Origin: Gracilinanus agilis
Lineage: Eukaryota
Length of the DNA stretch: 64,000 nt
NCBI RefSeq assembly: GCF_016433145.1
Contig: NC_058135.1
Coordinates: 275,260,214-275,324,213, forward strand
Direction: 5' to 3'
In this document: piece by piece, positions 38,672 to 46,923 of the stretch
Layout: each line of letters opens with the position of its first letter
Numbering within the stretch: position 1 is the stretch's first letter
The notes under the pieces: model-generated
What the model saw: the letters and a program-made list of their open reading frames with translations, nothing else
Told to the model about the DNA's origin: nothing
Database searches by the model: none
Program-made: the position numbers and the translations under genes

Positions 38672-40089
38672 AAGAAATTAATTCAATCAATAAAGGCTTG
38701 ATAACATCCATTAGAGTGACAAGAAGTCTTCAGAGGGCAGAGAATGTAACTACAAACCTCCATTGCCAGCTGAGGGAAGATCTTTCATCAAAGATTATTA
38801 AATACAACTGTTCAACTAGCACAACAAAAAAGGGAAAAAAATGAGTTAGCAACAGAAAAATAGAAAATAAATGACAATTGACAGCTTCTTTCCAGGAAGT
38901 GAAAAGAGAACAAATGAAATAGAAATAGAAGAAGAGGAAGTAATTCCAGCAAACTGGACACAGGCTTTGGAAGATCTCAAAATTCAATTAACTCAAGAAC
39001 TTCAGGAACTCAAAAACCAATCATGAGAGGCAAGAGAGGCTGAAGACAATTTGAAAAAGGAAATACATGAACTAAAACAAGAAAATAAAGTCTTGAAGTC
39101 CAGAATTGGCCAGCTTGAAAATGAATCAAAGAAGGCAAAAGATGATCTACAAAGAAAATCAGACAAGAAGGAGAAGGATGACCAAAAAGCCAGGGATGAA
39201 ATTCAGTCTTTAAAAAAGATAACTCAATAACTAGAAACAAATGACTTCACAAGGCAGCAGGAATATGTTAAACAAAATAAAAAAAAATGAAAAATTTGAG
39301 GAGAATATGAAACACCTCATTGATTCAACCAAAGATCTGGAGAACAGCTAGAAGAGATAACTTGAGAATTATTGGTTTACCAGTACACAGTGATAAAATT
39401 AAAAGTTTAGATAGCATCCTACAAGAAATTATCAGAGACAATTGCCCTGAAATTCTAAAATAAGAGGGAAAAGTGGAAATTGAGAGAATCCACAGATCAT
39501 CTCCTACATTTAATCCACAACTGACAACTTCCAGGAATATTATAGCCAAATTTAAAAACTACCAGACCAAGGAAAAATATTACAAGGTGCTAAAAAGAAG
39601 TCATTCAGATATCAGGGAACTGCAGTTAGGATAACACAAGATCTGGCTGCAACTACATTCAAGGAACAGAAGGCATGGAACACAATATTCCAGAAAGCAA
39701 GAGAACTGAGTCTACAACCAAGAATTAACTATCCAGCAAAACTGACTATATTATTGCAGGGAAAAGTATGGTCATTCAATAAAATCAAGGACTTCCAAGC
39801 ATTCATCAAGAAAAAAACTGGACTTAAACAAAGAGTTTGCTGTCCAAACACAGAACTCTAGAGAATCACCATAAGGTAATTAAGAGAATGGGGGGAGGGG
39901 AAAATAATTTTCTTTAAGGGATCTAATAAGTTCAATCAATTTGTATCCCCAAAAGAAAAGAAGATATTGGCAAATATTAAAAATTATTATTATCTACAGG
40001 GTAACTAGAAGAAGTTTACATAGAGGGAAAAGTAAGAAATGGTATAGGATGAAATGTCAAGTGATATATATATATATATATATATACAT

Positions 40090-40482
40090 NNNNNNNNNNN
40101 NNNNNNNNNNNNNNNNNNNNNNNNNNNNNNNNNNNNNNNNNNNNNNNNNNNNNNNNNNNNNNNNNNNNNNNNNNNNNNNNNNNNNNNNNNNNNNNNNNNN
40201 NNNNNNNNNNNNNNNNNNNNNNNNNNNNNNNNNNNNNNNNNNNNNNNNNNNNNNNNNNNNNNNNNNNNNNNNNNNNNNNNNNNNNNNNNNNNNNNNNNNN
40301 NNNNNNNNNNNNNNNNNNNNNNNNNNNNNNNNNNNNNNNNNNNNNNNNNNNNNNNNNNNNNNNNNNNNNNNNNNNNNNNNNNNNNNNNNNNNNNNNNNNN
40401 NNNNNNNNNNNNNNNNNNNNNNNNNNNNNNNNNNNNNNNNNNNNNNNNNNNNNNNNNNNNNNNNNNNNNNNNNNNNNNNNNN
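40090..40482. other. assembly gap (393 N) inside a (TA)n tract of the L1 inter-ORF spacer
   Basis: N run flanked by TA repeats. Confidence 0.99.
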
Positions 40483-40640
40483 AGATATATATATATGTAT
40501 AAATATATACAAAACTAGAGTGGGGAAAGAAGGTAATAATAAGAAAAATAAAGAAAAAACCAAAAAGGAATAAATTTATATTCCATAAAGAAGCATGTGG
40601 GACCAACAGGGAAAAATAACAATATACTGTAAGGGTAAAG

Positions 40641-41237: not shown

Positions 41238-43244
41238 TAAAGAGATTAGAGAGAGGAAATACTTAATGCTTAAGTACATTGAAATCAACTTAAAGAGTGA
41301 AGAACAATCACATCCATTGGGGCAGAGAATTGATTCACGCCCTATAGAGAAGGAGAAGGGTAACAAAAGGACTGCTGGGGAGGGAAGTAACTCTAGGGAA
41401 AGAGAGAGAGAGAAGGTGGCAGTTTAAAAAGATCCAAAAGAAGAATAAGAGGGGAATAAGAAGGGAGAGGGGAGGAAAGGAAGTACAATAAGGGAGGGGA
41501 TCAGGGGAAGTGATTAAAAAGAAAACACTGGTATAGGAGGAAATAGTGAAATAAGAAAGGACAGGACAAGGAGAGAGAATCAAAATGTCTGGGAATGCAC
41601 AGATGATAATTATAACTCTGAAGGTAAATGGGATGAACTCACCCATAAAATGGAAGCAAATAGCAGAGTGGATTAGAAACTAAAATCCTACCATATGTTG
41701 TCCACAAGAAACACACATGAGACATGTAGACATATATACAGTAAAGATGAAATGATGGAGCAGAATCTTTTGGGCTTCAAATGAGAAAAAGAAGGCAGGG
41801 GTTGCCATCATGATCTCAGACAGAGCCAAAGTAAAAATAGATATGGTTAAAAGAGATAGGGAATGTAACTACATCCTAATAAAAGGCAGTATAAACAATA
41901 AAGAAATGTAAGTAGTCAACATGTATGCACCAAATGGTATACCCTCCAAATTTCTAAAGAAGAATCTAGTGGAGCTCAAGGATGAAATAGTTAGCAAAAC
42001 CATACTAGTGGGGGACCTCAACCTTCCCCTATCAGATCTAGATAAATCACACCAAAAAATAAATAAGAAAGAGATAAGAGGTTAATGAAACCCTAGAAAA
42101 ATTAGAGTTAGTAGATATATGGAGAAAAATAAATAGGGACAAAAAGGAATACAACTTCTTTTCAGTAAAAGAACTATTGAATTAATAAATAAGACTAGAA
42201 GCTGGTATTTTGAAAAAAAACAGATAAAATAGACAAAGTACTAGTTAATCTAATTAAAAAAAGGAAAGAAGAACGTCAAATTAATAGTATCAAAGATGAA
42301 AAGGGAGACCTCACCTCTAATGAAGAGGAAATTAAGGCAATCATTAAAAACTATTTTGTCCAATTATATAGCAATAAATATAGCAATCTAGGTGATATGG
42401 ATGAATATTTACAAAAATATAAATTGCCTAGATTAACAGCAGAAGAAATAGAATACTTAAATAATCCCATATCAGAAAAAGAACTTGAACAAGCTATCAA
42501 AGAACTCTCTAAGAAAAAATCGCCAGGGCCTGATGGATTCACAAGTGAATTCTATCAAACATTCAAACAACTAATCCCAATACTATACAAATTATTTCAT
42601 ATAATAAGCAAAGAAAGAGCCCTACTAAATTCCTTTCATGACACAAATATGGCACTGATTCCAAAGCCAGGTAGATAAAAAGCAGAGAAAGAAAATTACA
42701 GACCAATCTCCCTAATGAACATAGATGCAAAAATCTTGAACAGAATACTAGAAAAAAGACTCCAGAAAGTGATCAAAAGGGTTATTCATAATGATCAGGT
42801 GGGATTTATACCAGGATGCAAGAATGGTTCAACATTAGGAAAACCATTCACATAATTGACCATATCAACAAGCAAACCAACAAAAACCACATGATTGTCT
42901 CAATGGATGATGAAAAAGCCTTTCTTAAAATACAACATCCATTCCTACTGAAAACACTAGAAAGTATAGAAATAGAAGAACCTTTCCTAAAAATATTACA
43001 CAGTATATATCTAAAACCATCAACAAGCATTATATGCAATGGGGATAAATTAGAAGCCTTCCTAATAAGATCAAGTGTGAATCAAGGATGCGCATTATCA
43101 CCTCTATTATTTAACATTGTACTAGAAACACTAACAGTAGCAATTAGAGAAGAAAAAGAAATTGAAGGCATTAAAATAGGCAATGAAGAGACTAAGCTTT
43201 CACTCTTTGCAGATGATATGATGGTCTACTTAAAAAATCCTAGA

Positions 43245-43422
43245 GGGCAGCTGGGTAGCTCAGTGGAGTGAGAGTCAGGCCTAGAGACAGGAGGTCCTAG
43301 GTTCAAACCTGGCCTCAGCCACTTCCCAGCTGTGTGACCCTGGGCAAGTCACTTGACCCCCATTGCCCACCCTTACCAATCTTCCACCTATGAGACAATA
43401 TGCCGAAGTACAAGGGTTTAAA
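43245..43422 (+). mobile_element. young tRNA-derived SINE (SINE1_Mdo-like) in the L1 RT domain
   Basis: Typical head and A tail; 14-bp TSD AAAAAATCCTAGAG. Confidence 0.95.
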
Positions 43423-43750
43423 AAAAAATCCTAGAGAATAAACTAAAATCTAGTAGAAATAATCAACAATGTTAGCAAAGTTGCAGGATACAAAATAAAT
43501 GCACATAAATCATCAGAATTTCTTTATATTTCCAACATATCACAGCAGCAAGAGGTAGAAAGAGAAACACTATTTAAAATCGCCCTAGGCAATAAAAAGT
43601 ACTTATGAATCTATTTACCAAAACAAAAACAGGAATTATATGAACACAACTAAAAAACACTTTCCAAAAATTAAAACTAGATCTAAACAATTGGAAAAAC
43701 ATTGACTGCTCATGGGTAGTGTTATGTAGAGATAGAAAGCAAATAAATCT

Positions 43751-45140
43751 TCAATCCCGTACCACATGGCCAATTTTTGAACATAGGAAACATCTCTTTA
43801 CTTTGTTGTTACCACTGCCACTAGATGATTGCCTAGGCCTGCTTTGGTTCCTCTGATTGGTGGACATCAGAGCCATATTTTTAATTTCTTCCACTTCCCT
43901 GGCCTTTTGAGCTTCCCTCAATTGCTTTTTTAGCTCAGCAATCTCTCGATCTTTTTTCAGAGGTTCTAGATGGTTTAGATTCACTATCCTTTGAGTCATG
44001 GATATAAGCCGCTGTCTTCCTCAATTCCTCAATGGGCATGGTCTCCCATTGTGGGCAATGTAGTCTAAAATATGTCTGGATATAGTTCTGACTCCCATTC
44101 ACAAATTTCCTCCTGACATGCTGAATGTTGTCCTCAGCAGTCATGTCCCTAAACCCTAGGATAGTCTCCCCAGCTTCCAGTATTCTGTCTAGGTATATGC
44201 TCGGGTGTTCCTCCTCCCCCTCCTTAAACTTTTCAAATGAGCCCCATGCATTTGATCTTCTAGCATGAAGTCTCATTGCCTCTGCCAAGTCCTCCCTGCA
44301 TCTCCTAATATATGTCATGTTTGCATGGGATGACAGCTCCAGATCTTGATGCTGTTCTGGCCATGATGCTAGATTGGGATTGGTCCTTGTTTCTGCAATA
44401 AATTTAGCTTTCTCACTTGGGGTAAATAGTTCTGATAATAGGAGTTCAGTGTCTTCGAAATTTGGATTGTACAACCTGATTGCCCATTTAAATTCTTTTA
44501 TTGCCTTATGTGGATTTACGAAAAACTGGGGGAACCTCCTTTTTAAAATTTCTAGATCCCCTCCGGTAAATGGTTTGTACCCCTTCACGTGTATGATTCC
44601 AGCATCCAGTTGCACTATTGTCCAGTCTGTAATGGGAAGGATTGTTACAGGAGCTGTCTCTGCCCCTGCAACTTCTTGCTTTTCTGGGTTGTCATGTTTA
44701 ATCTCTTGTAGTATTTCACCCCATTTCTTTGTTGTGACCATGTTTTCTATTATTTCCAACTGCATAATTGTCTTGGCATCTAATTCCTTCCCTTCTCTAA
44801 TTTGCTTGTTAATCTCTATCAGTGTCTTCATATATTCCAACATATGTTCCATAACCAGGTTAGTAACTTCAGCCTTTCCAAATGTGAAAGCTAGAAACTT
44901 CCTCAAAATCATTAGGGACCCATAGCAAGTTGCAGTCATGGCTATCCCTGATGGTACATAAGCCAAGGCATCCCCCACAGTTATCGTTAGCCACAGGTAA
45001 GTATCATAAAGTTCTATCGCTGTTTTAAAAAATTGGGGAACTGTGACAAACCAAAATGTGGCACAAGTCTGCCAAATCCTATACATTAAAACTCCAGAGC
45101 ACCCCAAGGTAATAATTGCTCTATTGATCATGCTGGCCAT
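43751..45140 (-). pseudogene. class I ERV gag (about 460 codons; p30 capsid, MHR, CCHC knuckle) with one frameshift and a terminal TGA
   Basis: KPFTGGDL...YNPNFEDTELLL...TPSEK (Gag_p30-like); EGEEEHPSIYLDRILE (MHR); CFLCSKIGHVVRD* (CX2CX4HX4, last Cys codon reads TGA); one extra A in the run at 43952-43957. Confidence 0.88.
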
Positions 45141-45174
45141 ATATCTCTTCTCCACTAGGTTCTATAGTAAAAAA

Positions 45175-45192
45175 TCCTAGGCTTGCTGGCCA
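45175..45192 (-). promoter_or_regulatory. degenerate retroviral primer-binding site (tRNA-Arg-like)
   Basis: TGGCCAGCAAGCCTAGGA versus TGGCGAGCCAGCCAGGA (complement of the tRNA-Arg(ACG) 3' end as recalled): 2 mismatches and 1 insertion. Confidence 0.55.
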
Positions 45193-46923
45193 AAACAGTA
45201 GATTGAGCTAACATAATAAAAATGACCATTCTACACAAATTAATTTACTTATTTAGTGCCATACTTATCAAACTACCAAAAAACTTTTTTACTGAATTAG
45301 AAAAAACTATAACAAAGTTCATTTGGAAGAACAAAAGATCAACGTTATCAAGGGAATTAATGAAAAAAAATGTGAAGGATGGTGGCCTAGCAGTACCAGA
45401 TATTAAACTATACCATAAAGCAGTGATCATTAAAAAAATATGGCACAGGCTAAGAGACAGAAGGGAGGATCAGTGGAATAGACTTGGGGTAAGTGATGTC
45501 AGCAAAATAGTGTATGATATATCCAAAGATCCCAACTTTTTGGACAAAAATCCACTATTTGACAAAAACTGCTGGGAAAATTGGAAAACAATATGAGAGA
45601 GATTAGGTTTAGATCAACATCTCACACCCTACACCAAGATAAATGCAGAATGGGTGAATGACTTGAATATAAAGAAGGAAACTGTAAGTAAATTAAATGA
45701 ACACAGAGTAGTATATTTGTCAGATTTCTGGGAAAGAAAAGATTTCAAAACCACGCAAGAGTTAGAAAAAATTTACAAAATGTAAAACAAATAATTTTGG
45801 TTATATTAAATTAAAAATTTTTGTACAAACAAAAACAATGCAACCAAAATCAGAAGGGAAACAACAAACTGGGAAAAAACTCTTTATAACAAAAAATTCT
45901 GACAGAGGTATAATTACTCAAATATACAAGGAGTTAAACCAATTGTATAAAAAATCAAGCCATTGCCCAATTCATAAATGGACAAGGGACATGAATAGGC
46001 AAATAAAAATATCAATAAGCACATGGGAAAGTGTTTTAAATCTCTAATAATTAGAGAAATGCAAATCAAAACAACTCTGAAGTATCAGCTCACACCTAGA
46101 AGATTGGCTAAAATGATAGCAGAGGAGAGTAATAAATGTTGGAGGGGATGTTAATGCACTGCTGGTGAAGTTGTGAACTGATCCAACCATTCTGGATGGC
46201 CATTTGGAATTATGCCCAAACAGCAATAAAAGAATACCTGCCCATTTGATCCAGCCATACCATCTTTGAGTTTGTACCACAAAGAGATCATAGATAAATA
46301 GACCTGTCCAAAAATATTTATAGCTGCACTCTTCGTGGTGGTAAGAACCTGGAAAAATAGGGTACGCCCTTCAATTGGGGAATGGCTAACCAAATTGTGG
46401 TATATGTTGGTGATGGAATACTACTGTGCTCAAAGGAATAATAAACTGGAGGAATTCCATGTGAAGTGGAATGACCTCCAGGAACTGATGCAGCTTGAAA
46501 GGAGCAGAGCCAGAAGAACATTGTACACAGAGACTGATACACTGTGGTAAAATTGAATGTAATTGACTTCTTACTAGCAGCAATGCAATGACCCAGGACA
46601 ATTCTGAGGGATTTGTGGAAAAGAATGCTACCCACATTCAGAGGAAGAAGTATAGGAGAGGAAACACAGAAGAAAAACAATTGCTTGAACACTTGGGTTA
46701 ATGCAGACATGATTGGGGATGTAGACTTGAAAAGGCCATACCAATGCAACTGTCAATAATATGTATATAAGTCTTCAATGATGACACATGTTAAAACCAT
46801 TGGATAGACCCATTGGCTATGGGGTGGGGCGTTTGAGGAGGTGAATGTGAAAGTAAAAACATGAATCATGTAACCATGGAAATTTTTTCTAAAAATAAAA
46901 AAAATATATCTATTAAATACTTT

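What the first reader, a model, noticed from the sequence alone, without database searches (positions are those of the whole stretch)
43720..45197. A 1.48-kb gag-only element with integrase-style ends but no LTRs
Seen: a clean insertion into L1 ORF2 with exact TSD GTAG, TG..CA ends forming a 6/7 inverted repeat (TGTTATG/CAAAACA), no terminal direct repeats, and about 94% of its length taken up by gag. Established: TG..CA with a 4-bp TSD is the footprint of class I ERV integrases, which normally yields LTR-internal-LTR proviruses or solo LTRs, not bare gag. Inference: this is either a minimal non-autonomous capsid cassette mobilised in trans using att sites only, or a provirus that lost both LTRs but kept the att ends.
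Basis: partly seen in the sequence, partly recalled or inferred. Interest (0 to 1): 0.8.

Follow-up and report, generated by a model that had tools for sequence, protein, structure and literature searches.

The report
Defective provirus with two U3 ends
This is not a new mobile gag element but a single broken copy of an abundant marsupial endogenous retrovirus that ends in a back-to-front piece of its own terminal repeat, as 13 of 100 sampled sister copies also do, likely a copying error made before the virus inserted itself.

Summary
The insertion is real: 1,478 bp in L1 ORF2 with an exact GTAG duplication. It is not a mobile gag-only family. Bases 43744-45196 are the first 1,452 nt (PBS plus truncated, frame-broken gag) of a high-copy class I ERV with 874-bp LTRs and 4-bp TSDs; no other copy examined shares either end. 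The left 22 nt are the LTR's U3 tip, inverted relative to gag. The right end is the PBS spacer plus one base, a 5' LTR collapsed to 1-4 nt. Both lesions recur independently. 13 of 100 PBS-anchored sister copies end in an inverted U3 cap (10-790 nt) followed by a direct TSD (9 exact). Several copies have 5' LTRs reduced to 6-68-nt tips. Integrase therefore likely inserted molecules with two U3 ends. Best mechanism (0.55): a short plus-strand strong-stop DNA re-primed on genomic RNA. Main rival (0.25): a U3/U3 intasome with host end-joining. Aberrant proviruses are known, but my limited literature searches found no description of this two-U3-ended class. Reads across the junctions were not checked.

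The parts
43716..43719 (+). Left copy of the 4-bp target-site duplication GTAG (host L1 ORF2)
43720..43741 (+). First 22 nt of the family LTR (U3 att tip), inverted relative to gag
   Evidence: LTR 22-1; 1-3 mismatches to 21 LTR starts among L053-L082, 9 mismatches to the inverted U5 end
43742..43743 (.). 2-nt filler at the inversion junction, no microhomology
43744..45196 (-). ERV internal sequence nt 1-1452 (PBS spacer, PBS, leader, 3'-truncated gag); 87-94% identical to at least 39 other places
43751..44020 (-). 89-aa frame with the nucleocapsid zinc knuckle, out of frame with the capsid part; ends at a stop
   Evidence: (zf-CCHC E=0.093, weak)
43935..45140 (-). Open gag frame from the ATG (401 aa), including an MLV-like capsid; private changes fit neutral decay
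45175..45192 (-). Primer-binding site, tRNA-Arg-like
   Evidence: a recalled tRNA 3'-end motif similar to the PBS complement hits two tRNA-Arg(ACG) genes in L218
45193..45197 (-). LTR/PBS spacer GTTT plus one base; in gag sense TGTT equals the first 4 nt of the LTR, i.e. a 5' LTR collapsed at a GTT microhomology (U3 and U5 tips cannot be told apart over <=7 nt)
45198..45201 (+). Right copy of the target-site duplication GTAG
42214..46047 (+). Decayed host L1 ORF2 (target), also carrying a SINE copy that starts at 43244

Best explanation
The element is a single-copy fragment (PBS plus truncated gag) of a high-copy class I ERV, capped by an inverted 22-nt U3 tip and flanked by the family's 4-bp duplication; it likely arose by template jumps during reverse transcription and was likely inserted by the family's integrase using two U3-type ends. 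Shown: origin of each part, orientation, TSD, single copy among those examined, recurrence of both lesions. Inferred steps: (1) a PPT-primed plus-strand strong-stop DNA left its template after 22 nt and re-primed on the second genomic RNA inside gag; (2) RT copied back to the RNA's trimmed 5' end at the PBS; (3) the usual partner for the second transfer, another strong-stop DNA, had slipped from U3 nt 4 to the PBS spacer at GTT, so the left 'LTR' is only TGTT (or the strand simply gained one A); (4) integrase accepted TGTTTTG as an att site (6/7 match) and inserted both ends together. The element has no promoter, poly(A) site or PPT, so it would not replicate again. The broader claim, that a molecule with two att tips was rearranged before or during integration, I put at about 0.85.
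For: Family anatomy. Inverted U3 caps in 13 of the first 100 PBS matches. Direct 4-bp TSD exact in 9 of 13, inverted in 0 of 13, cross-pair matches 0 of 156. Empty-site paralogues give a 4-nt overlap for L091, L151, L155, L158 and the window. Caps match their own 5' LTR best or tied-best in 6 of 8 tested, and 2nd-3rd in the other 2. Collapsed 5' LTRs with intact TSD: L130 (11 nt), L039 (6 nt), L042 (68+14 nt). U3 stubs of about 17-180 nt joined in the direct orientation to internal sequence occur in 5 of 33 new PPT-anchored copies. L044 carries 426 nt of antisense gag inside its 5' LTR, and L040 carries a second LTR-less two-tip element. Six of 100 copies start within 4 nt of the PBS spacer with host DNA upstream. 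Asymmetry: an inverted U5 cap appears in 1 of 40 PPT-anchored copies (L113); inverted:direct stubs are 13:5 or 13:7 versus 1:7 (Fisher p=0.009 / 0.033).
Against: The direct rate comparison 13/100 versus 1/40 is not significant (p=0.068), and the two samples differ in sub-lineage mix. Junction signatures (0-14 nt microhomology, one about 23 nt imperfect, or fillers of 2-78 nt) fit host end-joining equally well; the window's own junction has no microhomology. Six of 14 caps (the window included) are <=22 nt, about an intasome footprint (recalled), which favours resection. Four of 13 TSDs are inexact. For 8 of 13 caps no empty-site paralogue was held, and L183 gave 2-3 nt overlaps. No reads were laid on the junctions.
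Confidence: 0.55

Rival explanations
1. Integrase paired the U3 ends of two separate DNA molecules or fragments from one particle. After concerted insertion, host end-joining resected and joined the free inner ends, leaving a long arm and a short inverted arm.
For: Many caps are very short (10-22 nt). Junctions show short microhomology or filler. Host repair of viral ends is common in this family: 9 of 100 copies have one normal end and a large host duplication at the other (at least 14, up to at least 133 bp), like the one-ended integrations in PMC5041404.
Against: It predicts U5/U5 pairs at a similar rate unless integrase prefers U3; 1 of 40 was seen. No cap runs past the LTR. It does not by itself explain antisense gag inside an otherwise complete 5' LTR (L044) or ends that stop at the PBS spacer.
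Confidence: 0.25
2. An ordinary provirus was rearranged after integration (replication-fork template switching), inverting PBS-gag and deleting the rest while both outer tips survived by chance.
For: For the window alone the topology is allowed: U3 tip, inverted internal part, last 1-4 nt of U5 with AAC microhomology.
Against: It needs one breakpoint at the PBS spacer and within 4 nt of the LTR end. In the 13 sister copies an inverted U3 tip abuts the downstream TSD, which needs an exact LTR flip plus a deletion each time.
Confidence: 0.12
3. A minimal non-autonomous gag cassette that is mobilised in trans through att sites only.
For: TG..CA ends, 4-bp TSD and a 401-aa open frame.
Against: No second copy with these ends. 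No LTR, PPT or promoter. Private changes 5 synonymous: 11 non-synonymous fit neutrality (expected ratio 2.72, p=0.78). Caps of sister copies have different breakpoints each time.
Confidence: 0.03
4. Assembly artefact (collapsed or mis-joined LTRs).
For: The assembly is fragmented (60,714 contigs), with an N gap about 3 kb away. Junction reads were not seen.
Against: No N in 43000-46000. L1 continues exactly across the TSD. Thirteen other loci show the same design, each with its own TSD.
Confidence: 0.05

Closest known systems
HTLV-1 proviruses lacking the 5' LTR, formed before integration (review PMC6950816, one passage read)
   Same: An LTR is lost yet the integrase-length repeat flanks the provirus, read as integrase accepting an internal sequence.
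   Different: There the 3' LTR is intact and in normal orientation; here the 3' LTR is absent and replaced by an inverted U3 tip.
HIV-1 proviruses with asymmetric LTRs (PMC9278108, passages read)
   Same: LTRs made unequal by RT misalignment with two packaged genomes; 26 of 88 proviruses. Matches the direct U5-stub class seen here (5 of 100 with TSD).
   Different: Deletions in direct orientation. Inversions were rare and no inverted U3 cap appears in the passages read. [quoted passage not shown]
One-ended aberrant integrations of HIV/ASLV (PMC5041404: passages, section 10, supplement searched)
   Same: One normal end; the other truncated and sometimes joined to viral DNA in either orientation. 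Matches 9 of 100 sister copies with large host duplications.
   Different: Those carry large duplications, deletions or inversions of host DNA; the window and its class carry the normal short direct TSD.
RT 'deletion with insertion' and strand-transfer errors (Pathak and Temin; Pulsinelli and Temin; recalled, papers not held)
   Same: Short strong-stop DNAs jump to wrong templates and can copy antisense pieces.
   Different: Not read here; whether they report two-U3-ended integrants is unchecked.
Class I (gamma-like, ERV1) endogenous retroviruses
   Same: 4-bp TSD, MLV-like capsid and integrase C-terminal domain, tRNA PBS, PPT, stop codon between gag and pro-pol.
   Different: No env found; long (about 420-codon) stretch between the gag stop and the protease; Repbase/Dfam name not testable.

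Membership tests
Class I ERV family (parent) | LTRs with TG..CA ends and a 4-bp TSD | tested here: met
   874-bp LTR; 19 of 30 loci with exact 4-bp TSD, 2 with 5-bp; the rest are non-solo, truncated or mismatched
Class I ERV family (parent) | tRNA PBS after the 5' LTR and PPT before the 3' LTR | tested here: met
Class I ERV family (parent) | MLV-like gag and pro-RT-RNase H-IN | tested here: met
   RVP, RVT_1, RNase_H, Integrase_H2C2 and MLVIN_C above cut-off in sister copies; Gag_p30 below cut-off but MLV capsid hit E=1e-4
Class I ERV family (parent) | env gene | tested here: not met
   5 copies: ORFs <=102 aa in the 1.36-1.47 kb after integrase, no CX6CC or QNR motif; no profile scan of this stretch
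Class I ERV family (parent) | Identity with a named Repbase/Dfam family | not testable with these tools
   no repeat library held
Non-autonomous mobile family (TRIM/LARD/MITE-like) | Several loci with the same ends and different TSDs | tested here: not met
Non-autonomous mobile family (TRIM/LARD/MITE-like) | Cis signals for re-mobilisation (terminal direct repeats, PPT) | tested here: not met
   only the PBS and 22 nt of U3 remain
Ginger-type DNA transposon (TGT..ACA ends, 4-bp TSD; features recalled) | Own terminal inverted repeats and transposase | tested here: not met
   ends derive from the ERV LTR and PBS spacer; no transposase
One-ended aberrant integration | Large host duplication, deletion or inversion at one end | tested here: not met
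   exact 4-bp duplication; met in 9 of 100 sister copies
Autointegration product | att tips joined to viral DNA | tested here: not met
   window tips join host L1; only the L040 mini-element sits inside an LTR
Domesticated gag | Intact frame under purifying selection after insertion | tested here: not met
   frame break, truncation, private S:N 5:11 against 77:220 in other copies
Domesticated gag | Expression and conserved orthologues | not tested
   no relatives held; the one run search was for DNA

The most novel reading that the evidence does not exclude
Two-U3-ended proviruses are a general, overlooked product of retroviral replication: PPT-primed strong-stop DNA acts as a rogue minus-strand primer, and integrase inserts U3/U3 molecules in vivo about as often as this family left copies that still reach a 3' LTR. 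LTR-pair finders and HIV provirus assays that need a 3' U5 would miss them, and the window's element is the minimal form, needing only 22 nt and 4 nt of att.
Probability: 0.35. Interest if true: 0.7.

Novelty: new variant of a known kind. Interest (0 to 1): 0.45.

Why it matters
The locus itself is a dead fragment. The class it reveals is the point. In 100 sampled copies, 13 end in an inverted U3 cap while 10 reach a normal 3' LTR within the 9 kb held. That is natural, countable evidence that a germ-line retroviral integrase accepted two U3 ends and very short att tips. A genome-wide census can test RT error against host repair as the source of defective proviruses, an open question for HIV and HTLV-1 reservoirs (10.64898/2026.03.31.715508, passages). 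It also predicts a blind spot in assays that need U5 in both LTRs (PMC9278108).

Tried and rejected
5-bp TSD reading (GGTAG/AGTAG by CpG decay): possible (2 of 30 loci have 5 bp) but disfavoured, since the family norm is 4 bp. Left 24-mer as a U5 end: 9 mismatches against 1-3 for U3. L084, the other T+PBS start: internal nt 1-436, no tip or TSD found. L082 as the same insertion by segmental duplication: rejected; 85-91% flank identity, no SINE at the same place, opposite orientation, 5-bp TSD. One search used the wrong stretch (downstream of gag) and was redone. The loose motif scan for inverted tips gave many chance hits; only those next to the end of internal homology were counted. One search stopped at L172; the rest was covered. 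Sequencing-run search: best share 0.34, others <=0.10, none laid, so no evidence either way. Earlier-findings look-ups were empty. Literature: 10 searches. 'U3-U3'/'two U3 ends' and 'inverted U3' with four other terms gave 0 papers. Subscription papers and older scans are not searched, and four classic papers were not held. The supplement of PMC9278108 was not opened, and bioRxiv supplements are closed; either may hold such structures.

Full report
1. Observation. The window holds a 1,478-bp insertion at 43720-45197 in a decayed L1 ORF2, flanked by GTAG on both sides, with ends TGTTATG and CAAAACA. Empty L1 sites show the two flanks overlapping by exactly 4 nt in 16 of 16 flank-pair hits. On the minus strand a 408-aa stop-to-stop frame (ATG at 45140) matches MLV capsid weakly, and an 89-aa frame carries a zinc knuckle. 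The gag, however, is frame-broken near 43957, has a stop at 43751 and lacks about 75 C-terminal codons present in four sister copies. That the host is a marsupial rests on recalled resemblance of its L1 and SINE.

2. What it comes from. A search of the own genome scored 40 of 1,207 candidates and listed 42 matches; nearly all cover query nt 25-1477 at 87-94%. None of the 29 non-self loci fetched has either of the window's ends. 26 of 29 run on into at least 190 nt more gag, and 27 of 29 run into LTR sequence beyond the PBS. The parent is an ERV with 874-bp LTRs (TGTTATG..CATAACA), a GTTT spacer, a tRNA-Arg-like PBS, about 7.9 kb of internal sequence and a PPT. Protease, RT, RNase H and MLV-type integrase domains pass Pfam cut-offs in sister copies. 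No env was seen in 5 copies. TSDs are 4 bp (19 of 30 LTR loci exact).

3. Anatomy. Bases 43744-45196 are internal nt 1-1452 on the minus strand. Bases 43720-43741 are LTR nt 1-22 on the plus strand, so the U3 tip is inverted relative to gag. The tip has 1-3 mismatches to 21 LTR starts and 9 to the inverted U5 end. Two filler bases join the parts. At the other end the PBS spacer is preceded, in gag sense, by one T. That gives TGTT, the first four bases of the LTR, as expected if the 5' LTR collapsed at GTT; over 7 nt or less the U3 and U5 tips are indistinguishable. The left 24-mer has one other genome match at <=1 mismatch, unrelated to the ERV. Five PBS matches lack the LTR's final A against 318 that have it. 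The other four are two LTR-end variants, one 13-nt tip and one fragment with no TSD found. The element is single-copy as far as tested. Its private changes (5 synonymous, 11 non-synonymous in about 360 codons) fit neutral decay.

4. The lesion recurs. I fetched 10 kb around each of the first 100 of the 318 PBS matches (contigs C1 and part of C2; L160 and L161 look like duplicates). Thirteen end in an inverted U3 cap of about 10, 14, 14, 16, 18, 33, 67, 98, 160, 232, 355, 607 and 790 nt: L151, L091, L155, L158, L183, L132, L105, L118, L167, L150, L131, L120, L098. The 4 nt after the cap repeat the left flank directly in 9 of 13, never as a reverse complement, and cross-pairing gives 0 of 156. 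Empty-site paralogues confirm a 4-nt overlap for four of them; eight had none held, and L183 gave 2-3 nt. Caps match their own 5' LTR best or tied in 6 of 8. The class occurs in young and old sub-lineages (72-96% to the reference copy). In the same 100, 10 reach a PPT and 3' LTR, 5 end in a direct U5 stub with TSD, 9 have a large host duplication at the cut end, and 6 start at the PBS spacer with no LTR. Most of the rest could not be classed in the DNA held, so 13 is a lower bound for the sample. Collapsed 5' LTRs with intact TSD are L130 (11 nt), L042 (68+14 nt) and L039 (6 nt); L039 and L042 came from the gag-similarity set, not from the 100. L040 holds a second LTR-less two-tip element of about 145 bp with TSD ATAC.

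5. Mirror test. Of 143 PPT matches I examined the first 40: 33 new and 7 already held. One has an inverted U5 piece at its 5' end (L113); 7 have direct U3 stubs. 13/100 against 1/40 gives p=0.068. Inverted:direct 13:5 or 13:7 against 1:7 gives p=0.009 or 0.033. The PPT pattern catches only younger sub-lineages, so this is suggestive, not proof.

6. Mechanism. A direct short TSD after an inverted U3 tip requires two att ends at the moment of insertion. Copying from the already integrated end would give an inverted flank (inference from established integrase chemistry). I favour RT (0.55): a short PPT-primed plus strand re-primes on the second RNA, copies back to the PBS and is completed against another strong-stop DNA, here one that slipped at GTT. 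L044's antisense gag inside a 5' LTR, the U3 bias and the ends at the PBS spacer fit this. The rival (0.25) is pairing of two U3 ends followed by host end-joining; the many caps of 22 nt or less, the junction fillers and the 9 one-ended copies fit that. Post-integration rearrangement (0.12), misassembly (0.05) and a mobile gag family (0.03) follow. All mechanistic steps are inferred; none was tested experimentally, and no reads were laid on the junctions.

7. Known systems. It works like HTLV-1 proviruses that lost an LTR before integration (PMC6950816, one passage) and like RT-made asymmetric HIV-1 LTRs (PMC9278108, passages). It differs from one-ended aberrant integrations, which carry large host rearrangements (PMC5041404, passages, section 10 and supplement search). 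PMC6894440 (passages) and two preprints (passages) did not describe inverted caps. Ten searches found no description of two-U3-ended proviruses (notably), but the library lacks most subscription and older papers, so prior description is not excluded.

8. Verdict. The proposed gag-only mobile element does not exist as a family. The locus is the minimal member of a frequent class of defective proviruses with two U3-type ends. New variant of a known kind; interest 0.45.

Noticed in passing
L040:~851-1007 (gag-sense numbering): A mini-element of about 145 bp (5-nt tip, internal nt 71-166, inverted 45-nt U3 tip) with its own 4-bp TSD sits inside the 5' LTR of a sister copy; it may be integration into co-packaged viral DNA.
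   Followed up: partly
L044:662-1331 (gag-sense numbering): 5' LTR made of U3 1-103, LTR 714-782, 426 nt of antisense gag and LTR 804-874; 3' LTR normal, TSD GGAA.
   Followed up: partly
L036, L090, L096, L124, L140, L143, L144, L168, L174: One normal U3 end and a large host duplication (at least 14, up to at least 133 bp) at the truncated end: natural one-ended integrations, 9 of 100.
   Followed up: partly
L091, L120, L124, L113: An internal TAACA near LTR nt 380 behaves like a U5 end: three 5' LTRs stop there and join the PBS, and one 3' LTR stops there.
   Followed up: no
L037, L042, L048, L113, L192, L208: The att sites lie 4-5 nt from the PBS and PPT (spacers GTTT and TTTAC), and some ends keep the spacer or PBS bases; integrase may clip more than 2 nt in this family.
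   Followed up: no
L034:2841-4976 and L038:2758-5139 (numbering): About 420 codons separate the gag stop from the protease domain, unusually long for a class I element; no Pfam match in the about 300 residues scanned before the protease.
   Followed up: no
L082:1500-2380: An independent solo LTR of the same family at the same L1 ORF2 position as the window's element (opposite orientation, 5-bp TSD); GTAG/CTAC-type targets recur.
   Followed up: partly
L043, L108, L129, L157, L172, L178, L084: Copies that begin at the PBS spacer with host DNA upstream; L172 has a 25-bp duplication, so some are likely captured cDNA rather than integrase products.
   Followed up: partly
L160, L161: Two loci about 60 kb apart on C1 with the same upstream 60 nt and the same match pattern; a segmental duplicate or an assembly duplicate.
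   Followed up: no
window 40064-40508: Assembly gap (N run) between (TA)n arrays, about 3 kb upstream of the element.
   Followed up: no
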